A stretch of 11,413 nucleotides of DNA from a virus, in the UHGV virus genome UHGV-0295468; one strand, given 5' to 3'. A model generated the notes under the pieces. The model saw nothing but the letters and a program-made list of their open reading frames with translations, made no database searches and was not told the origin of the DNA. Of the stretch, positions 1 to 11,413 are shown piece by piece. Positions within the stretch are counted from its first letter, which is position 1. Every line of letters starts with the position of its first letter. The translations under genes and the position numbers were made by a program.

Positions 1-136
1 CACCTTATGACTGGAAGCCGATCAGGGTGGTTTGTCGTAAATGGTCGGCAAGCGTGGGGGCGTTGTGGGTAACCATAACGGCAGATTTTGAACAGGTCGT
101 GGCATAGGAGGCTCTGATGCAGGATATTCCACAGGA
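1..136. repeat. Left-terminal inverted-repeat arm: exact reverse complement of 287..422; carries an inverted copy of the M 3' end (plus-strand codons 3..107, stop 108..110) and of the first 6 codons of L (117..134)
   Basis: Base-by-base comparison: position i pairs with 423-i for i=1..136 with no mismatch; the match breaks at 137 vs 286. The arm runs to the window edge, so its true length may be larger. Confidence 0.95.
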
Positions 137-306
137 TGATACTGCCGCCCCTGCCAGGTAACCGGCTCACCTTTTTCGTTCTGCTCATTACAGAAAAAAT
201 AACGTTCACCACCGACCTCTGTCAGATCGATTTCCCAGAGCACCGCCTGGGCTGACTGAGTGAGGCGTGTCGTCTCATGATGTGTTTCCTGTGGAATATC
301 CTGCAT
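22..306 (-). CDS. L: Minor tail protein L, N-terminal fragment only. About 57 codons (306..137) are L-like; the rest of the 94-codon ORF (136..22) is out-of-frame read-through into the inverted-repeat arm
   Basis: Translation MQDIPQETHHETTRLTQSAQAVLWEIDLTEVGGERYFFCNEQNEKGEPVTWQGRQY closely matches the lambda gpL N-terminus as recalled. ATG at 306..304 lies 9 nt after the M stop, preceded by GAGG. Similarity stops exactly at the 136/137 repeat junction; lambda L is about 230 aa, so this copy is truncated. Confidence 0.8.
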   Translation of the reverse strand: MQDIPQETHHETTRLTQSAQAVLWEIDLTEVGGERYFFCNEQNEKGEPVTWQGRQYHPVEYPASEPPMPRPVQNLPLWLPTTPPRLPTIYDKPP

Positions 307-422
307 CAGAGCCTCCTATGCCACGACCTGTTCAAAATCTGCCGTTATGGTTACCCACAACGCCCCCACGCTTGCCGACCATTTACGACAAACCACCCTG
401 ATCGGCTTCCAGTCATAAGGTG
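287..422. repeat. Internal partner of the left inverted repeat; this copy is contiguous with the intact M gene and the L start codon
   Basis: Reverse complement of 1..136 (136/136). It lies within genuine coding context: L start ATG at 306..304, M stop TAG at 318..316, M C-terminal codons up to 422. Confidence 0.95.
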
Positions 423-645
423 GCGTCCACTGAAATGCGCGGACGCCACCGTGCCGTTCCAGAAAGGATTTTAAAGATGGGTGTTCACATTTACGAACAC
501 GTATCGTCACGCTGTAAGTCGACAACTGGTTATTCAGTCCCGCCGCACGACGCTGTTCATAACCATCGCCCAGCTTCACTGTCACCACTTTCGGCTCTGA
601 TACCACATTCATATCCGGGCGCACTTTCCAGTGAAACGTCTCCAT
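316..645 (-). CDS. M: Minor tail protein M (109 aa)
   Basis: Same length as lambda gpM with clear similarity along the protein (METFHWKV..., WTPPYDWKPIRV..., ...FEQVVA). ATG at 645..643 overlaps the H stop TAA (647..645) by one base; correct position between H and L. Confidence 0.9.
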   Translation of the reverse strand: METFHWKVRPDMNVVSEPKVVTVKLGDGYEQRRAAGLNNQLSTYSVTIRVRKCEHPSLKSFLERHGGVRAFQWTPPYDWKPIRVVCRKWSASVGALWVTITADFEQVVA

Positions 646-3600
646 TACCGATATGCTCCACTTAACCGACCACCATCACGGGCCTGCTGTTGCATAAAGT
701 CCGCTGCCGCTTTTTTCCCAAGGTCATAAACCACCTTCAGGGCAGCAGGACCTATCTGCCCGTTCGTGCCATCGTTATTGATCTCGATGTTGTACTGCGG
801 GGCAAACATCGCCATACCTGAACCACCAATATCCGCCACAACCCCCAGCTTACCGTCAGCACCACGACGCAGTGGCAGAATGGCTTCAGGTCCAGCTTCC
901 CCCATCACACCCGCGCCTTTTGCAAAAGCAAAAAACGTCGGACGGTTAACCACCGTGCCACTGTAGCGACTCAAATCAGCCGACTGATAAACACCGCCAT
1001 CAGCATTGGCTACAAAATCAAAAGGCAGCGCGGAAGCAATGCCTTTTACCGCTTTCATTAAAGCTATCTGAGCCATGATTCTGGACATATCTGACAGCAC
1101 AGAAGAGGTGAAGGATTTGAAATTGAGTTTGCCTGTAGTACAGAATGTCGCCAGCCAGTCACTCATGCTACTGAACGCAGACGTGAACAACTGTTCCACT
1201 GTCCCGGCTGTGTTATCCGCATTCTCAGTGACATTCTGGAGTGCACGCAGGACTCCGTTTTTCCAATTACCCTGAGCAATTTCAAGCCGTTGCCAGTAAC
1301 GGCGATTCTCATTCAGTTGTCGGTTCAGACTCTCCGTCAGCGCCTGCTCGGCCTTTCTGTAGTCATCCGTGTTATATGTCCCTTTCTGCTCACTATCCCG
1401 CCTCAACTGCTCCAGCTGTTGCTGGTATTTCTGGCGAAGACTCAGTTGTACCTGATATCGCTGCCGCTGCTGATCACCCATACCCACCGTGGCGATATCC
1501 AGGTCATGTTGCTGACGCTGAGCGCGCTCTTCTTCAGCCAGTTGACTGGTCAGCTGAATTGTTTTTTTCTTCAGATCGTTGAGTGCCGTCTGTTTCTGAA
1601 GCTCCTGCTGTTTTACATCCAGCAGCGTCAGTGCCTGAATCAGTTCATCTTTACGGGCCAGCACACTCTTTTCATCTGCCGTCAGTTTTTTCCCGTCCAG
1701 ATCGCTGATGCGCTGCTGCAGAGCCAGAAGCTGTTTATGCGCTTCTGTCATCTTTTCAGTGGCAATGCCTGCTGACTGTCTTGCAGCAGCAATCTGTCCT
1801 TCCACCTGTGCCTGTTGCTGACTGTACTGCAGCAATAACCGGGTGGCCTCATCATTACGGGTTTCGCGTGTTTTTTTCTTACCGGATGCCAGGGCTTTCT
1901 CGTAACGTTCATTTTCACGTTGTATCGCCGCATCCCTGACAGCCTGATCGGCGTACTGCATGGCATTAATACGCGCAATTTCACGCTGATGTCGTGCAGC
2001 TTCCGTTTCATTCATCCGGTTCAGTGCAGCATTTTCAGCATTACGGCGTTTCTGTTGCTCCTGATAATTCCGCTCTGCCTGCTCTTTTGCATCCTGCAAA
2101 TCCTTCTGGCGTTTTTTCTCCTGAAGATCGTTAAGACGCTGCTGATCGTATTCAACCTGAGAAGATGATGCCGTCCAGGGGAGTCTTTTCGCCCGCGACA
2201 CTTTCTCCTGCAAAGTGGCAATCTGCGCATCCAGCGAATCTTCACGACCAATATTCATGGCCGCATCCCAGAACTGCTTCCACCAGTCAGACAAAGTTTG
2301 CAGCGTACTGCCCAGCGCATTGAGGTTATTATCAATATCCGCAGTACGCCGACCGGTTTCCTCTGCCAGTGCAGACATGGCTATCCGTGCCGCATCACTG
2401 GACCGCCCCTGCTCTCCAAGGACGCGTATCTGCTCAAGCTGAGTGGCAGTAAGAAAATGCAGCTCATTGTCCAGAGACTTCGCGGCATTTACAGGATCAT
2501 CCTTCAGCCGCTTAAACTGATTTATGGTATCGCTGACCGACTGGCCAACCGATCGCTCCATCTGTGCGGCAGCTCTCGCCACCATACCGATATCGTTTCC
2601 ACGAAATGCACCACTCCCCACCACCTGAGCCAGCGCACCGGCTGCAGCATGTTGCGTGATACCATTCCCGGAAATAGCACGACTGAGCGTCCACAGCTGC
2701 CCGGCAGTGACTCCGGCATAATGCCCCGTCAGCGACAGCTGGCGGTTAAATTCTTCCCCCTCCTTCTGACCGTCATACCAGGCTTTACCCAGGCCATAGA
2801 CAGCCGCGGCAATACCGCCAATAACCCCGCCAAGCATCATGCCTTTCGGTGACATCAATGTGTCTATCCACCCGGCACGGTTAGCCAGCGTTATTCCGGA
2901 TCCCCTCAGCGCACCTAAATTTCCGCGGGCCAGTTCACCTATCAGAACGCCTATCTCCTGACGGGCCGCTGCACTTTTCAGCCCCAGCGAATGCGTGGCT
3001 TTTCCTGCCTGCTCCATTTTGCGGATATACACTTCTGCAGCACTGCTTACCCCCAGCTGGGCAGCCTTGGCACGAAGCAACTCAGAAGAAGAAAGATTCT
3101 GGCGGGTTGCCTGCTCTTTAAGCTGACGGATAAACGCCACTTTCTGTCGGGTAGCCTCTTCCTCAGCCTGTGTAAGAACACGGGTTTTCGCCGTAACCTC
3201 AGAAATCAGCGCCAGATAATCCTGCTGACCAATCCCGCCACTGTTTCTGGCCTGTCGGATCTGCTGCTGAATACGCTGTAATTCCTGCAGACCCGCACTG
3301 GCCTGTTTCACACTGTCAATCTGACGATAAAACGCAGCAGCCGCTTTATCCTGAGCCTCCGCCAGAGCCATGGCCTGCGCCTGTTCCTCGCGCATTTTCT
3401 GGCTCAGCGCCTCCATACGCTGGCGGGTTTTCTCCACCTCGCGGGCCATGCGTTCATGAGCCTGTGCGTTCTTCTCCACCGTCTGCGCATGGACGGATGC
3501 GGCTGTTGCAGCCGAAGACGCCGCCTGCGTTGTCTGCCGGGCGGCCTGAGTCTGACGCTCCATAAAACGCTGCATACGGGCAGAAGACCGTTCTGCATCG

Positions 3601-3701
3601 CTGGCTGCACCATTCAGAAGGTTTTTGATACGGGGGATTTCATTTTTAAACTCTGCCGCATCAATCCCCAAATCAATGACCAGGTTGGCTATCTGGTCCA
3701 T
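645..3701 (-). CDS. H: Tail tape measure protein (gpH-like), 1018 aa from the ATG at 3701
   Basis: N-terminus MDQIANLVIDLGIDAAEF and C-terminus INNDGTNGQIGPAALKVVYD...RDGGRLSGAYR match lambda gpH termini as recalled. Long Q/A/E/R-rich coiled-coil repeats and a Gly-rich hydrophobic segment are typical of tape measure proteins. ATG at 3701..3699 is preceded by GGAGGTG with 6-nt spacing; the ORF track starts 10 codons earlier at a TTG (3731), which I consider less likely. Confidence 0.92.
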   Translation of the reverse strand: MDQIANLVIDLGIDAAEFKNEIPRIKNLLNGAASDAERSSARMQRFMERQTQAARQTTQAASSAATAASVHAQTVEKNAQAHERMAREVEKTRQRMEALSQKMREEQAQAMALAEAQDKAAAAFYRQIDSVKQASAGLQELQRIQQQIRQARNSGGIGQQDYLALISEVTAKTRVLTQAEEEATRQKVAFIRQLKEQATRQNLSSSELLRAKAAQLGVSSAAEVYIRKMEQAGKATHSLGLKSAAARQEIGVLIGELARGNLGALRGSGITLANRAGWIDTLMSPKGMMLGGVIGGIAAAVYGLGKAWYDGQKEGEEFNRQLSLTGHYAGVTAGQLWTLSRAISGNGITQHAAAGALAQVVGSGAFRGNDIGMVARAAAQMERSVGQSVSDTINQFKRLKDDPVNAAKSLDNELHFLTATQLEQIRVLGEQGRSSDAARIAMSALAEETGRRTADIDNNLNALGSTLQTLSDWWKQFWDAAMNIGREDSLDAQIATLQEKVSRAKRLPWTASSSQVEYDQQRLNDLQEKKRQKDLQDAKEQAERNYQEQQKRRNAENAALNRMNETEAARHQREIARINAMQYADQAVRDAAIQRENERYEKALASGKKKTRETRNDEATRLLLQYSQQQAQVEGQIAAARQSAGIATEKMTEAHKQLLALQQRISDLDGKKLTADEKSVLARKDELIQALTLLDVKQQELQKQTALNDLKKKTIQLTSQLAEEERAQRQQHDLDIATVGMGDQQRQRYQVQLSLRQKYQQQLEQLRRDSEQKGTYNTDDYRKAEQALTESLNRQLNENRRYWQRLEIAQGNWKNGVLRALQNVTENADNTAGTVEQLFTSAFSSMSDWLATFCTTGKLNFKSFTSSVLSDMSRIMAQIALMKAVKGIASALPFDFVANADGGVYQSADLSRYSGTVVNRPTFFAFAKGAGVMGEAGPEAILPLRRGADGKLGVVADIGGSGMAMFAPQYNIEINNDGTNGQIGPAALKVVYDLGKKAAADFMQQQARDGGRLSGAYR

Positions 3702-4035
3702 AACGCACACCTCCGGAAATACCTTCCCCAAGATGCATCAGTTCTTCGTCCGTTCGCTCCGGTATCCCGTTCTCTTCCGGTAAAAGGCTGAAATCAGCCA
3801 CCGCAGCATCACTGCTGCCGGACACCATTCTCACGATCAATGCCTTCAGCGAGGCAAACTGCGCATCCATCCACACATCACTGAAGCTCTGCATCCGGAA
3901 ATAATCGCCCCACTCACCAAGCTCAGTGGCCGACATTTCCGACAGCATCCGCCGCCAGTCTGCCCGCCGGAACTCCCGGGCAAGCCGCATGACAAACTGC
4001 ATTTCCCGCGTCAGGACTTTTCCGGCGTCAGCGCC
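3673..4035 (-). CDS. T: Tail assembly protein T segment: the -1 frame ORF overlapping the 3' end of G, probably expressed only as a G-T fusion by programmed -1 frameshifting
   Basis: The -1 frame relative to G is open from 4035 (just after an in-frame stop at 4038..4036) to the stop at 3675..3673. It overlaps the G stop and sits between G and H exactly as lambda T does. A lysine-codon slip site lies one codon before the G stop. The internal ATG at 4002 has no obvious Shine-Dalgarno sequence. Confidence 0.65.
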   Translation of the reverse strand, partial: GADAGKVLTREMQFVMRLAREFRRADWRRMLSEMSATELGEWGDYFRMQSFSDVWMDAQFASLKALIVRMVSGSSDAAVADFSLLPEENGIPERTDEELMHLGEGISGGVRYGPDSQPGH

Positions 4036-4397
4036 TCATGCTCATCATCCCCGGCATTATCAATGGCCCCCATACCGCTCAGCGACAGAACCATCTCCGC
4101 CCCCGCACCCAGGGCATCATACGACCATGTTGTAATAACGGATGCGCAAAGCGTCTCTACATCCTTAGACTGATCCGCATTCCACAGTGAGCGGGAAACC
4201 AGCCAGGCATTGATATCCATCCCCATCCGCAGAAAAGCAATCTGTCGTTCAGCCTCCGGCAGTTCTCCCTCACCGGCATCAAACTTTGCCGTTCGCTGCT
4301 GAACAAACGCCAGATATTCAATTCTCTGCAACCCGGACAGCTCACTGAGCACCACGGACTGTTTTTCATAATTAAACGTGCCCTGTTTCAGAAACAT
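4011..4397 (-). CDS. G: Tail assembly chaperone G (128 aa from the ATG at 4397)
   Basis: Translation MFLKQGTFNYEKQSVVLSELSGLQRIEYLAF... resembles lambda gpG (MFLK..., TLSELSALQRIEHLA...). GGTGGAG Shine-Dalgarno 6 nt upstream of the ATG at 4397..4395. The ORF-track start at 4439 is a TTG inside the upstream hairpin and is unlikely. Confidence 0.85.
   Translation of the reverse strand: MFLKQGTFNYEKQSVVLSELSGLQRIEYLAFVQQRTAKFDAGEGELPEAERQIAFLRMGMDINAWLVSRSLWNADQSKDVETLCASVITTWSYDALGAGAEMVLSLSGMGAIDNAGDDEHEALTPEKS
4017..4023 (-). other. Candidate -1 ribosomal frameshift site GGAAAAG (minus strand) linking G to T
   Basis: G-frame codons read CCG GAA AAG TCC TGA. An AAG-to-AAA lysine tRNA slip at 4019..4017 would enter the T frame. 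The only window where both frames are open is 4035..4014. The motif differs from lambda's GGGAAAG as recalled. Confidence 0.5.
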
Positions 4398-4413
4398 CAT
4401 GTTCTCCACCTGC

Positions 4414-4437
4414 AAAAAAGCCCCGGATAACCGGGGC
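4414..4437 (-). terminator. Intrinsic-terminator-like hairpin between V and G: 7-bp GC stem (GCCCCGG/CCGGGGC), 4-nt loop, followed on the coding strand by TTTTTT
   Basis: Plus strand 4420..4437 is gccccgg-ataa-ccggggc, preceded by A6 at 4414..4419; on the minus (coding) strand this is a stem-loop followed by a U6 tract, 20 nt after the V stop and immediately before the G ribosome-binding site. Confidence 0.55.
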
Positions 4438-4457
4438 AAATGATGAGTATCGTCCTG

Positions 4458-5201
4458 TTAACCTGCGGCGCTGACAGTCACCGCAGCCACAGCCACAAAA
4501 TTCCCGTCAGCGGTCATGCCCACAATGCTGACACTGCCCTGCTTCACGCCTTTCACCGTGGCCACAAGCCCGTTCAGGGTCACCGTGGCAGTCTGTGGAT
4601 CTGACGAATGCACACTGATCGCTTTGTCACTGGCTCCGTCAGGTTTTACTGTAAAGGTCAGCGTGGTGGTTGCTCCCACTTTTACACTGGCAGATGCCGG
4701 TGCCACCGTCAGCCCGGTAACGCTCACTGTTTCAGTGCCTTCCTCTGCCAGATACGGACGCCCCACACCGCTGATTTTCACAGTGCGGGTCATCACGTCT
4801 TTTGAGGCAATGGTTTTACCCAGTGAACTCAGCCAGCCACGGAAAACATCAACAGTACCGTTGGGATATTTGATACGAAACGCGCAGACTTCACCGGAGT
4901 CGAACAACTGAACCAGTTTTTTCTGCCCGCTGTCACCCGGACGCCAGGCCAGCGTCGCCGAAGTATCACCGACTGATTTCTGCCCCTGGGTTGTCGTTTT
5001 CCAGTCTGCATCTTCATCATCGAGATAAGTATCATCTTCTGCATCAGCGGTCATTTCGCCAGGTTGCAGATCCTTCACCATCGCAAGACGCAGCCAGTCA
5101 GTGTCCGACAAAGGGTTCGCAAATGCGTCGCCGTTGCCGGTATACATCCAGAACGTCGTCCCCGCACCTTTCGTCTTTGCCAGTGGATTTGGTGTGGTCA
5201 T
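4458..5201 (-). CDS. V: Major tail protein V with C-terminal Ig-like domain (247 aa from the ATG at 5201)
   Basis: Strong similarity to lambda gpV as recalled (KGAGTTFWMYTGNGDAFANPLSD..., DTYLDDEDADW..., YPNGTVDVFRGWLSS...). Perfect AAGGAGG Shine-Dalgarno 5 nt upstream of the ATG at 5201..5199. The C-terminal ~90 aa are Thr/Val/Ser-rich and Ig-like. The ORF-track start (GTG at 5276) would overlap U. Confidence 0.92.
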   Translation of the reverse strand: MTTPNPLAKTKGAGTTFWMYTGNGDAFANPLSDTDWLRLAMVKDLQPGEMTADAEDDTYLDDEDADWKTTTQGQKSVGDTSATLAWRPGDSGQKKLVQLFDSGEVCAFRIKYPNGTVDVFRGWLSSLGKTIASKDVMTRTVKISGVGRPYLAEEGTETVSVTGLTVAPASASVKVGATTTLTFTVKPDGASDKAISVHSSDPQTATVTLNGLVATVKGVKQGSVSIVGMTADGNFVAVAAVTVSAAG

Positions 5202-6199: not shown

Positions 6200-6775
6200 T
6201 TACTCAATAAAGATCATTGGCTTACCGTTAAAGCGTTCATGCCGTGTGACCGTCCATTGTTGTCCGTCATAAACAACGCGATCCCCGCGCCGTGGGCGGT
6301 ATCCCGAAGAAAACACCACCAGAGAGACTCTGATCCCTTTTCCCGGTTGGCAGCGCGTATGGATGCGATCACGGTCAGAAAGATGGGAAAGACAGCCTCG
6401 ATTAATGATGTCGATATGGCTGTGATCCCGGGAGAAACACTGGCAGAGCTGAATGCTCTGTCCGGACCTCGGCACTTCTTCTGCACTGGTTCCGGCATCT
6501 GCCCAGACAACCCCGACCAGCGGCTCAGAGCCGCTGTTAGTCAGCTGAACTTTTCCTGACTTCAGATAAACCTTCTTACCCGTTTTCATGTCATCCGTTT
6601 TCAGCTTAGGCAGCATAAACACACCTTCGGTTATGCCGTCGCCTGTTTCTCCCTGTGGAATATCGGTCAGCGCCACCGCAAAAACATCCCCCACCTGCAC
6701 CAGATCTCCGCTGCTGATGGCTGCACTGGCAACAATCGCCACCGTTTTTCCTTCTTCTACAAAATTCTTTGCCAT
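6200..6775 (-). CDS. Continuous 191-codon ORF: N-terminal ~115 aa resemble a gpD-like head decoration protein; C-terminal ~45 aa resemble head-tail joining protein gpFII; no stop codon between them
   Basis: ATG at 6775..6773 with GGAGA Shine-Dalgarno 5 nt upstream. N-terminal part (KTVAIVASAAISSGD..., YLKSGKVQL, VVWADAGTSAEE) resembles lambda gpD (AAVGILAVAAD, FYKSGTFRY, VLWPEAASDE). The C-terminus (GKGIRVSLVVF...RRGDRVVYDGQQWTV) resembles the lambda gpFII C-terminal region (GQGVRV...SLFV...RRGDTLTIGEENFWV). Whether this is one fused protein or two genes merged by a frameshift is unresolved. Confidence 0.55.
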   Translation of the reverse strand: MAKNFVEEGKTVAIVASAAISSGDLVQVGDVFAVALTDIPQGETGDGITEGVFMLPKLKTDDMKTGKKVYLKSGKVQLTNSGSEPLVGVVWADAGTSAEEVPRSGQSIQLCQCFSRDHSHIDIINRGCLSHLSDRDRIHTRCQPGKGIRVSLVVFSSGYRPRRGDRVVYDGQQWTVTRHERFNGKPMIFIE

Positions 6776-6818
6776 AACTGTCTCCGCACAGCCCCGTTCA
6801 GGGGCTGATTTCAGGTAC

Positions 6819-6838
6819 AAAAAAAGCCCTTACGGGCC
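6819..6838 (-). terminator. Weak terminator-like hairpin after the capsid ORF: 4-5 bp GC stem with GTAA loop followed by T7 on the coding strand
   Basis: Minus strand reads ggcccgtaagggc followed by ttttttt (plus-strand A7 at 6819..6825), 24 nt downstream of the capsid stop. The stem is short, so this is tentative. A second 5-bp GC hairpin (plus 6791..6805) sits just upstream of the next ribosome-binding site. Confidence 0.35.
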
Positions 6839-6861: not shown

Positions 6862-8820
6862 TTACGCCGTACATTTCACCAGGCCGCGGTGATCAACTGG
6901 CGCAACACCAGCGTCAATACGCACTTTCGTTGTCACGCCATCCACACTGAAGCCCTCCATCTGATCAATATATGGCGTATCCACACCGTTGAGATAAGCC
7001 ACTTCAATCGTATCGGAGCCTTTGGACGCAGCCAGGTAGAAGGTGGTCTGGCTGTTATCATCAAGACGAGGCTCTGCAATAACGGTCGCAAAATCTTTCA
7101 CCGGGTTAATAATACCGGCGTTAATGTCAGCCCCCTTGACACTTGAGGAGCGAATGACCTGGTTAGCAACAGACTCCATCGCCGTCGGTACCAGTACGAA
7201 CGCAGGACGAATATTCAGATGACGCTCACCCTCTTTCTGAACGCGCATCAACTGGCGGGCTTTATCCAGCGATGCCACGTCCATTGCCGCGCTCTCCAGT
7301 ACGTTTGCATGTTTCGCTTTATCGAACAGACTTACATTATCTGTGGAGATTTTCGGGTTAGACGTCAGAATGGCATAAACCAGATCGGCAATAGTGGATT
7401 TCGCCGCACGGCCCAGCTTCATCGGGACATCGGTCAGCATATTCAGATCATCATTGATAATGGCCTGACGGGTGATACTGAACAGCTCGCCATAGGTCGC
7501 CAGTGCAATAGTGGCCTGTTTATCTCCGGTGGTGACGTATTTATATTCTGCCCCTTCACGCACCTGACGCAGAGCACTGAAGCCCCCCATACCCACACGA
7601 TGGGCAATTTTAAAATCAGACAACTGACCTTTCCGCGTCCACTGTTCATAGGTTTCAGGGGCATCTTCCCAGCCCTGCAGAATGGCTTTGTTCGCAACAT
7701 CCAGCAGAATATTACCGAAGTCAGACGTACTGTGTGTGAACGCCGCACCGACCATCTGCATCGGGTTATAACTGGAAACACCAATACCACGTTCAGTCAG
7801 TGACATACGGGCATATTCACGCAGGGTCATCCCGTTGTAGACATTATCACGTTCAGTTTTTTCAAACCCGGCGCGCGCCATCAGCGCCTGGCGGATCCCG
7901 TCCCCCACAAAATTACCGTTACCGGCATAAATATGAGCCGGGGTATTTTTATTGGATGGCGTGGACTCGCGCCCCATCTCGTTCAACAGCTTTTCGCGGG
8001 CCTGCTCCAGCGAACATTCAGGATCGGCAAGACACTGAGCCTGCAACGACTGATAACGCCCGCCAAACATGGCAAACAGATCATTAATACCGTTTACACG
8101 CGCTTTTTGCTCTGCCAGGACCTGCGCACGGATGCTGTTTTCATCCACCACGGGTGCTGCTGCCTGCACTGGCGTCCGGGAGGCTGCAGGTCCATCATCC
8201 TGTACGCGTGGAGCACTGTTGCGTGGCGGAGTAATCATATTTCGAATGGATTCCGGCATCTTTTTAAATTCCTCTGTACGTTTTGACTGAATACATGCCA
8301 TTGCCTTAACGGCTGGTGTCACCTGATCAGCAAATCCCTGTGCCAGACATTCGGCACCGGACATCCAGGTCTCATCCGCCAGCATGGCAGCAATTTCATC
8401 GGTGGTTTTCCCGGTTTTCTGTGCATAAGCGGGTAACAGAACCGCCTCAACTTTATCGAGCAGGTCGGCATAGGTGCGCATGTCCTCCGCATCACCGCCC
8501 GTAAAGCCAAATGGTTTATGAATCATCATGAAGGAGTTTTCCGGCATAATGACCGGGTTTCCCACCATCGCAATGACCGACGCCATTGACGCCGCCACAC
8601 CGTCGACATAAACGGTAATGGACGCACCATGTGTTTTCAGTGCATTAAAAATGGCGATGCCTTCAAAGACATCGCCACCCGGTGAATTAATATGGAGATT
8701 AATGTGGGTGATATCGCCCAGTGCATTCAGATCACTGATAAACTGCTTCGCCGTAACACCCCAGAAACCAATCTCGTCATAAATATAAATATCCGCGTCA
8801 CTCTGGTGACCTGCCTGCAT
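6862..8820 (-). CDS. Prohead protease (ClpP/S14-like), scaffold-like linker and HK97-fold major capsid region in one 652-aa ORF
   Basis: N-terminal ~200 aa have ClpP-like features (IYIYDEIG..., INSPGGDVFEGIAIFNALK, VDGVAASMASVIAM, MIHKP). The middle is a charged Ala/Gln-rich region. The C-terminal ~330 aa look like an HK97-type capsid protein (no lambda gpE similarity). ATG at 8820..8818 lies 13 nt after the portal stop. The ORF-track extension to 9081 starts at a TTG and overlaps the portal by ~250 nt. Confidence 0.78.
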   Translation of the reverse strand: MQAGHQSDADIYIYDEIGFWGVTAKQFISDLNALGDITHINLHINSPGGDVFEGIAIFNALKTHGASITVYVDGVAASMASVIAMVGNPVIMPENSFMMIHKPFGFTGGDAEDMRTYADLLDKVEAVLLPAYAQKTGKTTDEIAAMLADETWMSGAECLAQGFADQVTPAVKAMACIQSKRTEEFKKMPESIRNMITPPRNSAPRVQDDGPAASRTPVQAAAPVVDENSIRAQVLAEQKARVNGINDLFAMFGGRYQSLQAQCLADPECSLEQAREKLLNEMGRESTPSNKNTPAHIYAGNGNFVGDGIRQALMARAGFEKTERDNVYNGMTLREYARMSLTERGIGVSSYNPMQMVGAAFTHSTSDFGNILLDVANKAILQGWEDAPETYEQWTRKGQLSDFKIAHRVGMGGFSALRQVREGAEYKYVTTGDKQATIALATYGELFSITRQAIINDDLNMLTDVPMKLGRAAKSTIADLVYAILTSNPKISTDNVSLFDKAKHANVLESAAMDVASLDKARQLMRVQKEGERHLNIRPAFVLVPTAMESVANQVIRSSSVKGADINAGIINPVKDFATVIAEPRLDDNSQTTFYLAASKGSDTIEVAYLNGVDTPYIDQMEGFSVDGVTTKVRIDAGVAPVDHRGLVKCTA

Positions 8821-8833
8821 CCTGAACCAGGAA

Positions 8834-10342
8834 TTATTCTTCGGACTGGTCGTCGGTGTGCTGCGGCTCCTGTCGTTTCGTTGCGGCACTGCTGCCTCCT
8901 TTATCACTGGCCGGATCGGTATCAAATACCAGATCCAGCTTGCGGTTTTCATCAATTTCGGCCTTGCGCCGACGTTTGACATCATCTGGATTACGACCAC
9001 CTGCACGTACCCAGTCTGATTCTGTCGCCGCTCCACCACGAATCTGAATTTTCCAGGCCTCAGCCTCCTTAACAGGGTCAATCCACGGCATCACCGGTCC
9101 GGAATACACCGCGGTATACAGTGAAGAACGATCAAGATCGCGGGGTAGCCTGATAACACCGGATGCCACAGCCTGTTTCAGCCAGGCACGATACATCGGG
9201 CGGGTGACGGCACCAATAAACCAGTCCTGCAGGATCAGGTAGCCATCAGTGGATTCAACCAGCTCCTGACGCTGGGCGCTGTAAGTGCCGTTATAGTTGC
9301 GCGCTGTACTGGAAAAACTCAGACGACTGCCCGCCGCCACGGCACGCAACTGACCATTACGAAAAGTTTCAAGATTAGGATTGGGGCGATCCGACTTCAC
9401 CATTCCGATTTCTTCGCCGGGTTTCAGATCGTCGTAAATAATGCCTGGCTGAATGGTAAGCTCGCGTTCCTTATCCTTGCTGCCATTACCATCCGGTTCA
9501 TAGCTCTGCCCGTCGCCTTTCCGGATGTACATCCCCAGAGCAGCGGCGATCCTTGCTGCAGTCAGCTCAGAATCTTCATACTCTTTCAGGGCACTGAGGC
9601 GGATCAGCACACCGGACAACAAAGACGTCCCGCGCATCTGGTGCAGACGGCGAACAAATTTAAGATGCAGCATTCGCTCTGCATCCACTTCTTTGGTTTC
9701 CATCTGCCGTCCGGATACGGGACGGCTTTTATACACCAGATATTTTTCGGGACGCCCCCAGTCATCAACAAACACGCCCTGATTCAGCCTGTTGCTCTCA
9801 TCACTGGTCATGGGAATAAAGTCCGGCTCGAGCGCCTCCAGCCAGAAATGAACACCGGCAGAAGGCGTCAGGCTGTTTATGCGCCCGGAAACCATCTGGG
9901 CAAACACCTCACCATCGCGCAGCCAGGTACGCAACATCAGACGTTCCAGCATCGGACGGGTAAACTGCCCGGTGACTTCCGGACTGACAGACCATTCACT
10001 CCATCGGGTGCGTATCTCCGCTGCCAGATCACGGGCAATGGCCCCATTGCGTAATACCGGATGTGGCTCGACAATAATCCCGTTTTTCCCCACCACCCGT
10101 TCTTCCAGCTTGTCAAATACACCAATGACCAGATCGTGGTTGTTATCAAGGTAACGGGCCTGCTCACGTAACGACACGGCCCCGTACTGGCTTAACTGGT
10201 CGGCAGTTCGGTTTTCCCGCCGGGCTTTGTGTGTCCGCGTCGTTTTTACGGCCTCATAAGCCTGGATCACCGCACGGGAACGCAGCCTTGCCGCTTTCCA
10301 TCCTGGTGAAAAAACGCCAATCACATCATCAAGAATTGCCAT
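8834..10342 (-). CDS. Portal protein (502 aa from the ATG at 10342)
   Basis: Size and position (between W/terminase and the protease-capsid gene) are typical of a portal; acidic C-terminal tail. The ATG at 10342..10340 overlaps the W stop TGA (10344..10342) in an ATGA arrangement. Assignment rests on synteny and general appearance, not on a recalled alignment. Confidence 0.8.
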   Translation of the reverse strand: MAILDDVIGVFSPGWKAARLRSRAVIQAYEAVKTTRTHKARRENRTADQLSQYGAVSLREQARYLDNNHDLVIGVFDKLEERVVGKNGIIVEPHPVLRNGAIARDLAAEIRTRWSEWSVSPEVTGQFTRPMLERLMLRTWLRDGEVFAQMVSGRINSLTPSAGVHFWLEALEPDFIPMTSDESNRLNQGVFVDDWGRPEKYLVYKSRPVSGRQMETKEVDAERMLHLKFVRRLHQMRGTSLLSGVLIRLSALKEYEDSELTAARIAAALGMYIRKGDGQSYEPDGNGSKDKERELTIQPGIIYDDLKPGEEIGMVKSDRPNPNLETFRNGQLRAVAAGSRLSFSSTARNYNGTYSAQRQELVESTDGYLILQDWFIGAVTRPMYRAWLKQAVASGVIRLPRDLDRSSLYTAVYSGPVMPWIDPVKEAEAWKIQIRGGAATESDWVRAGGRNPDDVKRRRKAEIDENRKLDLVFDTDPASDKGGSSAATKRQEPQHTDDQSEE

Positions 10343-10554: not shown

Positions 10555-11330
10555 AACCATCCTCCGGAAGTCAGCCAGGGGTTAACATCGTCAGTTACTG
10601 TTTTCTTCCGTTTTTGTTTTTTAACAGGCGTGGATACCGGTTCCGGTGTGGGTGACGGTTCGGTACTGTCCGGGACACACTCCAGCCAGGTTTCCCGGCT
10701 CGCCCACTCCGGTGCATCCGGCCAGCGGATCTTTTCGTATCCATGCAGAATGACCAGAGCCTCGGCATACACCATCAGGTCAAAAGCTTCGTTGGCACCG
10801 CGACCCGGCTTACTCCATTTCCCGTCACTGCTCCGCTCTTCATACGTCAGTTCGTCGTAAAACCAGCTCCCCAGCCAGTCAGGGAAATGCACATAGCCGG
10901 GACCTGGCGAGTCACGCCATAACGCGTTATTCACCCGGTCTTTCAGGGCATCCGTCTGAAGAAGCCAGAGCGGTACATCACCTGCGGCCTGCGCCCGTCG
11001 GCCCGTTCGTCCGGTGTTATCAGGGAATGTACGGGTGATCAGTTTTGCGCGCCGGATGCTGTCGCCCTTAAACAGGTAAATACGTTTACCAAGGCCATCA
11101 CGACGGCAACGACGCCAGAATTTATAGGCATTATCAGTGACCCCGTCTTCACCGCCGGAGTCCACCGCCATTGCCATCAGTCGCATTTGTTGAGAAGGAT
11201 CGGAGGCCAGCGGCCAGCTTTTATGAAAAACATCCGTCAGCAGGACATCCCAGTCTTCCGGATAGCTGGCCGGATCAATTCGCTGGCTCTCCCCGATGGC
11301 GGTGGACTCCGGCGGTGAAGACGGGGTCAC
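10551..11330 (-). CDS. A: Terminase large subunit, C-terminal fragment only (about 248 codons, 11294..10551); the codons above 11295 are read-through into the right inverted-repeat arm and the N-terminal ATPase part is absent
   Basis: Position immediately upstream of W and portal with ATGA coupling to W; globular, Trp/Asp-rich sequence typical of a terminase nuclease domain. The ORF-track start is a GTG inside the inverted-repeat arm. Assignment is by synteny and general appearance; not verified by search. Confidence 0.7.
   Translation of the reverse strand: MTPSSPPESTAIGESQRIDPASYPEDWDVLLTDVFHKSWPLASDPSQQMRLMAMAVDSGGEDGVTDNAYKFWRRCRRDGLGKRIYLFKGDSIRRAKLITRTFPDNTGRTGRRAQAAGDVPLWLLQTDALKDRVNNALWRDSPGPGYVHFPDWLGSWFYDELTYEERSSDGKWSKPGRGANEAFDLMVYAEALVILHGYEKIRWPDAPEWASRETWLECVPDSTEPSPTPEPVSTPVKKQKRKKTVTDDVNPWLTSGGWL
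11054..11171. repeat. Internal partner of the right inverted repeat, inside the terminase coding sequence
   Basis: Exact reverse complement of 11296..11413 (118/118); position i pairs with 22467-i; the match breaks at 11172 vs 11295. Confidence 0.95.
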
Positions 11331-11413
11331 TGATAATGCCTATAAATTCTGGCGTCGTTGCCGTCGTGATGGCCTTGGTAAACGTATTTACCTGTTTAAG
11401 GGCGACAGCATCC
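11296..11413. repeat. Right-terminal inverted-repeat arm: exact reverse complement of 11054..11171, running to the window edge
   Basis: Base-by-base comparison with no mismatch over 118 bp, separated from its partner by a 124-bp unique spacer (11172..11295). The arm reaches the last base of the window, so the true length is unknown. Confidence 0.95.

What the first reader, a model, noticed from the sequence alone, without database searches (positions are those of the whole stretch)
4414..4437. Strong terminator-like hairpin inside the tail operon, directly after major tail gene V
A perfect 7-bp GC stem with a 4-nt loop and a following U6 tract sits between V and the G ribosome-binding site on the coding strand. 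A partial terminator here would produce more V transcript than G, T and H transcripts, fitting the large excess of major tail protein needed over chaperone and tape measure. Lambda, as I recall, achieves this mainly through translation, so a transcriptional attenuator would be a different route to the same ratio.
Basis: partly seen in the sequence, partly recalled or inferred. Interest (0 to 1): 0.4.

Follow-up and report, generated by a model that had tools for sequence, protein, structure and literature searches.

The report
Known terminator hairpin after tail-tube gene
The hairpin is a real, textbook-shaped transcription terminator between the major tail gene and the tail chaperone gene of a very common E. 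coli lambdoid prophage, but database records of near-identical phages already mark it as a terminator, and whether it lowers downstream expression has not been tested.

Summary
On the minus (coding) strand, GCCCCGG-UUAU-CCGGGGC (4437..4420) is followed by U6 (4419..4414). It lies 20 nt after the V stop codon and 13 nt before the G start codon. The stem energy is -15 kcal/mol, and no motif this strong appeared in 1000 shuffles of the window.

It is not new. GenBank records of mEp460 and Ayreon (98% identical here) annotate the same bases as a rho-independent terminator, and N15 annotates a stem-loop at the same junction. The junction occurs in 1835 of 5426 complete E. coli genomes.

I compared 49 distinct V-G junctions. 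All 26 with a spacer of 34 nt or more hold a GC-rich hairpin. Five unrelated stem families carry a U tract. The N15 type does not. Lambda and phi80 have no hairpin.

No promoter-like site follows the hairpin, and mEp460 encodes a Q antiterminator, so the site must be mostly read through.

Most likely it is a Q-suppressible terminator whose hairpin also caps and stabilises V-ending mRNA.

Unrelated to the finding, the window carries a 141-bp inversion and fold-back ends that look like assembly artefacts.

The parts
4458..5201 (-). Major tail (tube) protein gene V, stop codon TAA at 4460..4458
   Evidence: Pfam PF16461 E=1.2e-66 plus Big_2. 99-100% identical to annotated 'major tail protein V' of PhiR47_1, mEp460 and cdtI.
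4438..4457 (-). 20-nt A/U-rich unstructured spacer between the V stop and the hairpin. It places the hairpin outside the footprint of a ribosome terminating at the V stop.
   Evidence: Sequence. The ribosome-footprint argument is an inference from general knowledge.
4420..4437 (-). Terminator hairpin GCCCCGG-UUAU-CCGGGGC: 7 G:C pairs, 4-nt loop, -15.0 kcal/mol
   Evidence: Annotated 'rho-independent terminator' in mEp460 and Ayreon.
4414..4419 (-). U6 tract immediately 3' of the stem
   Evidence: Kept as T5-T7 in all close relatives examined.
4404..4410 (-). Shine-Dalgarno GGUGGAG of gene G, 3 nt after the U tract
   Evidence: Sequence; inferred from its spacing to the ATG at 4400.
4011..4400 (-). 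Tail assembly chaperone gene G. T follows at 4002..3673 and the tape-measure gene H at 3731..645. All depend on read-through of the hairpin.
   Evidence: Pfam PF06894, PF06223, PF06791/PF09718. No promoter-like site on the minus strand between 4414 and 226.
6819..6838 (-). Second terminator-like hairpin GGCCC-GUAA-GGGCU plus U6, directly after the protease-scaffold-capsid fusion gene (6862..9081)
   Evidence: Energy -8.3 kcal/mol. Annotated as a rho-independent terminator in mEp460 at record 6334..6353.
6790..6806 (-). Third hairpin AGCCCC-UGAAC-GGGGCU without a U tract, in tandem after the capsid-gene terminator and just before the next gene's Shine-Dalgarno and ATG (about 6775)
   Evidence: Sequence and alignment with mEp460.

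Best explanation
This is a genuine Rho-independent (intrinsic) terminator embedded in a late operon that is read by Q-antiterminated RNA polymerase. It is conditional and leaky.

- Polymerase that carries no Q (spurious starts, prophage-state transcription) stops here efficiently.
- Q-loaded polymerase coming from the late promoter mostly reads through. It has to, because G, T, H and the remaining tail genes lie downstream with no promoter-like site of their own in the window.
- Transcripts that do end at the U tract, and longer transcripts trimmed back by 3'-to-5' exonucleases, finish in a very stable G:C hairpin that blocks further decay.
- The V-containing segment of the message therefore accumulates over the G-T-H segment.

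The net effect would be a modest excess of V over G/T/H at the RNA level, on top of translational control, together with insulation of the distal tail genes from non-antiterminated transcription.

Shown here: the motif, its position, its conservation, its recurrence at this junction, and Q in a close relative. Inferred: termination, read-through, stabilisation, and the size of any effect.
For: - Canonical motif at the right place and orientation, far beyond chance.
- The hairpin starts 20 nt past the stop codon, so it is free to fold.
- There is no promoter-like site downstream on the coding strand, so read-through is obligatory.
- mEp460 (98% identical here) encodes an antitermination protein Q, PF03589 E=9.6e-54. 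Q-loaded RNAP is termination-deficient (abstracts of 10.1101/651190 and PMC6606751).
- The only two coding-strand hairpins in the window followed by a run of six T sit after the capsid gene and after V, the two most abundant virion proteins.
- In about 200 close relatives the 5-bp GCCCC/GGGGC core and the T run are kept. Variation is confined to the loop-proximal base or bases of the 3' arm.
- Across 49 distinct V-G junctions, all 26 with a spacer of 34 nt or more contain a GC-rich hairpin. Five unrelated stem sequences carry a run of five or more T: the window type, Ewingella, Providencia, Kluyvera/Klebsiella, and Serratia/Symbiopectobacterium.
- The same arrangement is predicted in Bacillus phage SPP1, between tail tube gene 17.1* and chaperone gene 17.5 (PMC6316719).
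- GenBank annotators independently called this element a terminator.
Against: - No transcript data of any kind were available.
- Q-loaded polymerase may ignore the site completely. Only the insulation and RNA-stability parts would then remain.
- Lambda, phi80, mEp043 and many others have no hairpin here (gaps of 3-23 nt) and still assemble tails, so any effect is dispensable or modest.
- The 12 N15-type hairpins at the same junction have no U tract. The feature shared across families is therefore the hairpin, not termination.
- No compensatory double substitutions were seen in the stem. Within the family the evidence for structure rests on conservation only.
- Q was seen in a relative, not in the window. 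Lambdoid genomes are mosaic, so this phage's late regulator is not known.
Confidence: 0.5

Rival explanations
1. Strong transcriptional attenuator. A substantial fraction of late-operon polymerases, Q-loaded or not, terminate here. The V versus G/T/H ratio is then set mainly by a step-down in transcription.
For: The motif is very strong: 7 G:C pairs, U6, -15 kcal/mol. Its d-score is about 55 by the d'Aubenton-Carafa formula, which I recalled from memory. U-tract hairpins recur at this junction in five unrelated stem families. T7 T-phi after capsid gene 10 is the classical precedent for a leaky terminator after an abundant structural gene (own knowledge).
Against: Q antitermination in the close relative is expected to suppress intrinsic termination. 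All essential tail genes lie downstream without a promoter-like site. Lambda-type junctions work with no hairpin.
Confidence: 0.15
2. Insulator only. The terminator exists to stop polymerases that did not load Q (spurious or read-in transcription in the lysogen) and has no role in virion protein stoichiometry.
For: This hypothesis is proposed for intra-late-operon terminators in phage L (PMC8022706). It is demonstrated in principle for antiterminated conjugation operons and Tn916 (PMC8955417, PMC8191782, PMC11658703; titles and abstracts). It is fully compatible with Q.
Against: It does not explain why the canonical terminators sit precisely after the two most abundant structural genes rather than at the operon start or at random junctions. 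It also does not explain the hairpins without a U tract at the same junction.
Confidence: 0.2
3. Pure RNA-level element. The hairpin acts only after transcription, as a 3'-exonuclease barrier or processing signal (selective RNA processing and stabilisation), or as a device that uncouples V and G translation. The U tract would be incidental.
For: N15-type junctions keep a stable hairpin, often with a UUCG or GNRA tetraloop, but no U tract. Gifsy-1 and a Citrobacter relative keep the GCCCCG/CGGGGC stem with a degraded U tract. There is a precedent for stem-loops setting subunit stoichiometry in an operon (PMC4423207, abstract).
Against: The T run is invariant (T5-T7) in the window family. A run of five or more T recurs behind five unrelated stems, which is unlikely if it were incidental.
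Confidence: 0.1
4. No function: a chance palindrome, the relic of a lost moron (an inserted accessory gene cassette), or a recombination scar at a module boundary.
For: Two genomes lose homology exactly inside the hairpin loop (L075; H100). A Serratia junction has an insertion inside a hairpin. Lambda does without the element.
Against: The motif occurred 0 times in 1000 shuffles. It is conserved in 1835 E. coli genomes. All 120 exact copies found in viral contigs lie in the V-G context, so it is not a dispersed repeat. Every long V-G spacer in 26 junctions holds a hairpin.
Confidence: 0.05

Closest known systems
Annotated 'rho-independent terminator' of phage mEp460 (GenBank JQ182728.1, 8751..8774) and 'terminator' of phage Ayreon (MF807953.1, 8742..8782)
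   Same: It is the same element: the same V-G junction in DNA 97.7-97.9% identical, with the same stem, loop and T6. mEp460 has one G:C to G:U change at the top of the stem.
   Different: Nothing of substance. Those annotations are computational too, and I found no experiment on them.
Phage N15 stem_loop 'putative rho-indep. transcription terminator' between gene 13 (major tail) and gene 14 (G homologue), NC_001901 9596..9613
   Same: The same junction in a homologous tail module (V 63% identical), with a GC-rich 6-bp hairpin and a tetraloop.
   Different: The stem sequence is unrelated (CGGGGC-GCGA-GCCCCG). It starts only 5 nt after the stop codon and has no U tract (followed by TTCCCCCC). 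It is therefore not a canonical intrinsic terminator.
Intra-late-operon terminator of Salmonella phage L / P22-like phages (PMC8022706)
   Same: A predicted intrinsic terminator inside a single-promoter, Q-type antiterminated late operon, after the procapsid gene module. The authors offer the same two hypotheses (partial termination, or blocking non-antiterminated transcription) and state that the roles are unknown.
   Different: It belongs to a podovirus module and follows the head genes rather than the tail tube gene.
Bacillus phage SPP1 predicted terminator at 11,255-11,304 (PMC6316719)
   Same: It lies between tail tube gene 17.1* (ends 11,279) and G-like chaperone gene 17.5 (starts 11,363), which is the same gene junction in an unrelated siphovirus.
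   Different: Gram-positive host, no Q system known, and the hairpin overlaps the end of the 17.1* reading frame.
T7 T-phi terminator after capsid gene 10 (own knowledge, not checked here)
   Same: A leaky terminator directly after the most abundant structural gene, with essential genes downstream that are expressed by read-through.
   Different: It acts on T7 RNA polymerase, follows the capsid gene rather than the tail tube gene, and has been shown experimentally.
Lambda tL2a terminator / PreS (LPR1) sRNA (bioRxiv 10.1101/2024.10.31.621285)
   Same: A terminator inside an antiterminated phage operon, where a GC hairpin plus poly-U forms the 3' end of a stable Hfq-bound RNA.
   Different: It lies in the early-left operon and is an experimentally detected sRNA. 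Here there is no evidence of a discrete small RNA, and the upstream sequence is not conserved between the window type and the Gifsy-1 type.

Membership tests
Intrinsic (Rho-independent) terminator | GC-rich stem of about 5-14 bp with a 3-8 nt loop and a stable fold | tested here: met
   7 G:C pairs, 4-nt loop, -15.0 kcal/mol.
Intrinsic (Rho-independent) terminator | U-rich tract immediately 3' of the stem | tested here: met
   U6 starts at the first base after the stem, 4419..4414. T5-T7 in relatives.
Intrinsic (Rho-independent) terminator | Same orientation as the transcription unit, in non-coding RNA clear of the terminating ribosome | tested here: met
   It lies on the coding (minus) strand, 20 nt after the V stop and 13 nt before the G ATG. 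On the plus strand the hairpin is followed by AAATGATG, so it is unidirectional.
Intrinsic (Rho-independent) terminator | Causes release of the transcript by RNA polymerase | not testable with these tools
   Needs in vitro transcription or 3'-end mapping. None was found in the searched literature.
Q-antiterminated lambdoid late operon | A Q-family antiterminator encoded upstream of the late genes | tested here: inconclusive
   Present in mEp460 (PF03589, E=9.6e-54). The window holds only structural genes, and lambdoid genomes are mosaic.
Q-antiterminated lambdoid late operon | Structural genes co-oriented, tightly packed, without internal promoters | tested here: met
   All genes are on the minus strand. 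The only minus-strand promoter-like site is at 225..196, and promoter-like sites are fewer than in shuffles.
mRNA-stabilising 3' stem-loop (selective RNA processing and stabilisation) | Stable hairpin at the 3' end of the operon segment whose product is needed in excess | tested here: met
   Hairpins directly follow V and the capsid gene. Hairpins recur at V-G junctions with or without a U tract.
mRNA-stabilising 3' stem-loop (selective RNA processing and stabilisation) | Longer half-life or higher steady-state level of the upstream segment; processed 3' ends at the hairpin | not testable with these tools
   Requires a rifampicin chase, Northern blots or 3'-end sequencing.
Hfq-dependent 3'UTR-derived sRNA | Terminator hairpin with a long U tail plus a conserved single-stranded seed upstream | tested here: not met
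   The U6 tail is present. However, the 20-nt upstream spacer is unrelated in the Gifsy-1 and Citrobacter junctions, which keep the same stem. Rfam gave no match at E<=1.
Dispersed palindromic repeat (REP-like) or mobile element | The same palindrome occurs at many unrelated sites | tested here: not met
   It is single-copy in the window. All 120 exact matches in viral contigs have the V-G flanks.

The most novel reading that the evidence does not exclude
Lambda-like tail modules may use two alternative, repeatedly evolved RNA devices at the V/G boundary. One is a full terminator, as here. The other is a bare UUCG/GNRA-capped hairpin, as in the N15 type. Both would set the tube:chaperone:tape-measure ratio at the RNA level, whereas lambda itself uses neither. 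In the terminator version, the hairpin plus U6 might additionally release a discrete, Hfq-binding RNA from the 3' end of the V message, as lambda tL2a does for PreS.
Probability: 0.1. Interest if true: 0.45.

Novelty: already known. Interest (0 to 1): 0.15.

Why it matters
If the element measurably tunes V against G/T/H, it would show that close relatives of lambda reach the same virion stoichiometry partly through RNA 3'-end formation rather than translation alone. It would also supply a test for a question the phage L authors left open: what are terminators inside antiterminated late operons for? The junction sits in about a third of complete E. coli genomes, including ATCC 25922 and O157:H7 strains, so it is easy to test. 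As a sequence feature, however, it is ordinary and already annotated.

Tried and rejected
- **Rfam:** a scan of the whole window at E<=1 gave no family.
- **Covariation:** about 200 close relatives show only single changes at the top of the 3' arm (C to G, T, or CA). There are no compensatory pairs, so structure cannot be proven by covariation within the family.
- **Dispersed repeat or mobile palindrome:** rejected. Every exact copy lies in the V-G context.
- **Bidirectional terminator:** rejected. There is no T run after the hairpin on the plus strand.
- **Internal promoter that would restart transcription for G:** none found.
- **sRNA reading:** the sequence upstream of the hairpin is not conserved between the window type and the Gifsy-1 type.
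- **Third 'terminator' annotated inside gene T of mEp460 (window about 3808..3791):** only a weak 5-bp hairpin inside coding sequence, with no U run. Not pursued.
- **Literature:** eight searches for direct experiments on terminators after major tail genes in lambdoid phages found only predictions and hypotheses. The Salmonella prophage transcriptome paper PMC7067206 does not address the site.
- **Context fold:** the fold of the 76-nt context is not significant on its own (z=-1.83).

Full report
**What is there**

All genes of the window run on the minus strand. On that strand the order of features is:
- the major tail gene V (5201..4458; PF16461 E=1e-66 plus an Ig-like Big_2 domain), ending in TAA at 4460..4458;
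- a 20-nt A/U-rich spacer;
- the hairpin GCCCCGG-UUAU-CCGGGGC at 4437..4420;
- U6 at 4419..4414;
- three bases, then the Shine-Dalgarno GGUGGAG at 4410..4404;
- the ATG of the chaperone gene G at 4400 (PF06894 E=2e-39).

T (PF06223) and the tape-measure gene H follow.

**Is it more than chance?**

The 18-mer folds at -15.0 kcal/mol. It is the best terminator-like site in the window scan. In 1000 dinucleotide-preserving shuffles of the window, counting both strands, a stem of >=7 G:C pairs followed by >=6 T never occurred. The looser motif (>=6 G:C pairs, >=5 T) is expected 0.029 times per window. The 76-nt context as a whole is not unusually structured (z=-1.83), so the signal is the motif itself. 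On the plus strand the hairpin is followed by AAATGATG, so it is unidirectional.

**Where the window comes from, and what is already on record**

The region is 97.5-99.9% identical to lambdoid coliphages of the mEp460/cdtI group: PhiR47_1, HannyBb, Tritos, cdtI, mEp460 and Ayreon.
- GenBank JQ182728 (mEp460) annotates record positions 8751..8774, the same bases, as a 'rho-independent terminator'.
- MF807953 (Ayreon) annotates a 'terminator' there too.
- NC_001901 (N15) annotates a stem_loop 'putative rho-indep. transcription terminator' between its major tail gene 13 and G homologue 14.

A 261-bp query across the junction finds it in 1835 of 5426 complete E. coli genomes, including O157:H7 strains and ATCC 25922. 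The element is therefore common and already labelled.

**Conservation in close relatives**

I compared 80 IMG/VR loci, further genome loci and 120 exact-motif hits.
- The GCCCC/GGGGC core and the T run (T5-T7) are always kept.
- The only stem variation is at the loop-proximal end of the 3' arm: C to T gives a G:U pair, C to G enlarges the loop to 6 nt, and CC to CA occurs once.
- There are no compensatory double changes, so the structure is supported by conservation and not by covariation.
- All 120 exact copies lie in the V-G context, so this is not a dispersed palindrome.

**Comparison across divergent tail modules**

I collected lambda-like V genes from one genome per species and from reference phages, located the V stop and the G start, and removed duplicates. 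This left 49 distinct junctions.
- **Short gaps (23 junctions).** Gaps are 3-23 nt with no hairpin. This group includes lambda (15 nt), phi80 and mEp043 (10 nt), and 1720a-02.
- **Long gaps (26 junctions).** All have a spacer of 34 nt or more, and every one holds a GC-rich hairpin of at least 5 bp. They fall into two designs.
  - *Hairpin plus U tract.* A hairpin followed by a run of five or more T is seen with five unrelated stems: the window type; Ewingella AAAGCCCC/GGGGCTTT; Providencia AGCCACAG/TTGTGGCT; Kluyvera/Klebsiella GGCTCC/GGAGCC; and Serratia/Symbiopectobacterium AAAGCAGCG/CGCTGCTTT.
  - *N15-type hairpin.* Twelve junctions have a (C)GGGGC-NNNN-GCCCC(G) hairpin starting 3-6 nt after the stop codon. 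It often carries a UUCG or GNRA loop and has no U tract.
  - Gifsy-1 and a Citrobacter prophage keep the window-type stem but have a degraded U tract (TTCTAT, TTTGCG).

Some stable hairpin at this junction has thus arisen or been kept many times. In several lineages the complete terminator motif is selected. Termination cannot be the function shared by all of these hairpins.

**Context that constrains the mechanism**

1. No promoter-like site lies on the coding strand between the hairpin and the last 225 bases of the window. Promoter-like sites are rarer than in shuffles. G, T, H and the genes beyond must therefore be transcribed through the hairpin.
2. mEp460 encodes an antitermination protein Q (PF03589, E=9.6e-54) upstream of its lysis and structural genes. 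Q-loaded RNA polymerase is described as pausing- and termination-deficient (abstracts of 10.1101/651190, 10.1101/2022.03.25.485794 and PMC6606751). The window itself does not contain Q, so this step is an inference from a close relative.
3. The only other coding-strand hairpin followed by a run of six T lies directly after the protease-scaffold-capsid fusion gene: GGCCC-GUAA-GGGCU plus U6, 6838..6819, -8.3 kcal/mol. It is also annotated in mEp460. It is followed in tandem by a hairpin without a U tract (6806..6790). The canonical terminators thus mark the ends of the two genes whose products are needed in the largest copy number.

**Most likely mechanism**

This is a bona fide intrinsic terminator that is conditional on antitermination.
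- Polymerase without Q stops here.
- Q-loaded polymerase mostly passes.
- RNAs that end at the hairpin, or are trimmed back to it, are protected from 3' exonucleases. The V segment of the late message would then be somewhat more abundant than the G-T-H segment.

I put this composite at about 0.5. The individual rivals are:

| Rival | Confidence |
|---|---|
| Strong attenuator that also acts on Q-loaded polymerase | 0.15 |
| Insulator against non-antiterminated transcription only | 0.2 |
| Purely post-transcriptional hairpin, U tract incidental | 0.1 |
| No function | 0.05 |

None of these can be separated without transcript data.

**What the literature says**

The phage L genome paper (PMC8022706) describes a predicted terminator inside the single-promoter late operon, after the procapsid genes. 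[quoted passage not shown]

The SPP1 re-annotation (PMC6316719) lists a predicted terminator at 11,255-11,304. That lies between tail tube gene 17.1* (ends 11,279) and the G-like chaperone gene 17.5 (starts 11,363).

Other relevant precedents:
- Work on antiterminated conjugation operons and Tn916 supports the insulator idea in general.
- Selective RNA processing and stabilisation by stem-loops is documented for operon stoichiometry (PMC4423207).
- A lambda preprint shows that the intra-operon terminator tL2a forms the 3' end of the Hfq-bound sRNA PreS.

I found no experiment on a V-G terminator in any lambdoid phage.

**Verdict**

The feature is already annotated and its possible roles are already discussed, so novelty is 'already known' and interest is low.

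**Things seen in passing**

Relative to mEp460, Ayreon and 1826 E. coli genomes, window 6329..6469 (141 bp) is inverted. This fuses the DUF2190/cement-like gene and the FII-like gene into an artificial-looking 206-aa ORF. The two window ends are perfect fold-back copies: 1-136 against 287-422, and 11054-11171 against 11296-11413. These look like assembly artefacts and do not touch the finding.

Two genomes lose homology exactly in the loop of the V-G hairpin. A Serratia junction has a roughly 160-nt insertion inside a hairpin that is intact in Symbiopectobacterium.

Noticed in passing
window 6329..6469: A 141-bp segment is inverted relative to mEp460 and Ayreon. It spans the end of the DUF2190/cement-like gene and the start of the FII-like head-tail joining gene, and creates a fused 206-aa ORF (6200..6820, minus strand). 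None of the 1826 E. coli genomes that hold this region has a single match spanning both junctions. 141 is, from my memory, the largest k-mer of a common metagenome assembler, so an assembly artefact is likely. A real inversion is not excluded.
   Followed up: partly
window 1..136 vs 287..422; 11054..11171 vs 11296..11413: Both ends of the window are 100% reverse-complement copies of nearby internal sequence (fold-back ends). mEp460 is collinear there without them. These are probably contig-end artefacts, so ORFs at the very ends are not trustworthy.
   Followed up: partly
window 6790..6838 (minus strand): There are two tandem hairpins after the capsid-fusion gene. GGCCC-GUAA-GGGCU has U6 and is annotated as a terminator in mEp460. 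AGCCCC-UGAAC-GGGGCU has no U tract and lies just before the next Shine-Dalgarno. These are the same two hairpin designs seen at V-G junctions of different phages, here side by side.
   Followed up: partly
L075 3770..3780 (IMG/VR UViG_2622736468_000007); E. coli GPEC87-32-644 NZ_CM142762.1 (hit H100): Homology to the window stops exactly inside the loop of the V-G hairpin (GCCCCGGTTA|ACCGCG...). In L075 unrelated sequence replaces G onward. This is a deletion or rearrangement breakpoint at the hairpin.
   Followed up: partly
L168 (Serratia marcescens) vs L169 (Symbiopectobacterium), V-G junctions: Both have a U-tract hairpin right at the V stop, followed by a second GCCCCGCG hairpin. In L168 the second hairpin is split by about 160 nt of extra sequence, giving a gap of 236 nt instead of 77 nt.
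   Followed up: no
L086, L110, L114, L115, L117, L118, L120, L133, L135, L136, L143, L159 (V-G junctions): The N15-type junctions carry a conserved (C)GGGGC-NNNN-GCCCC(G) hairpin only 3-6 nt after the V stop. The loops vary freely (UUCG, GCGA, GUGA, GAAA, UCAG...) and there is no U tract. A C-rich stretch and GGAG follow. In N15 an alternative pairing of CCGGGG with the CCCCGG next to the Shine-Dalgarno is predicted. This may be a translational or RNA-stability device distinct from a terminator.
   Followed up: partly
window 4426 (first base of the 3' stem arm) in relatives L004-L083, L091-L097: This single stem position carries three alleles (C, G, T) among otherwise 98-100% identical phages. 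The rest of the 57-nt spacer is almost invariant.
   Followed up: no
L121-L134, L140 (genome-contig hits): V sequences 98-100% identical to lambda V appear on short contigs, several at coverage of about 1x or lower, in assemblies of unrelated organisms such as Neobacillus, Oceanobacillus, Shewanella, Leeuwenhoekiella and Kitasatospora. These look like lambda DNA contamination of those assemblies.
   Followed up: no
window 6862..9081 (minus strand): A single 739-aa ORF combines a ClpP-like protease domain with an HK97-fold capsid domain (PF00574 plus PF25209). It is annotated as 'protease/scaffold protein' in mEp460, and its 5' part overlaps the portal ORF. The major capsid protein of this phage group is thus made as a protease-scaffold-capsid fusion.
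   Followed up: no
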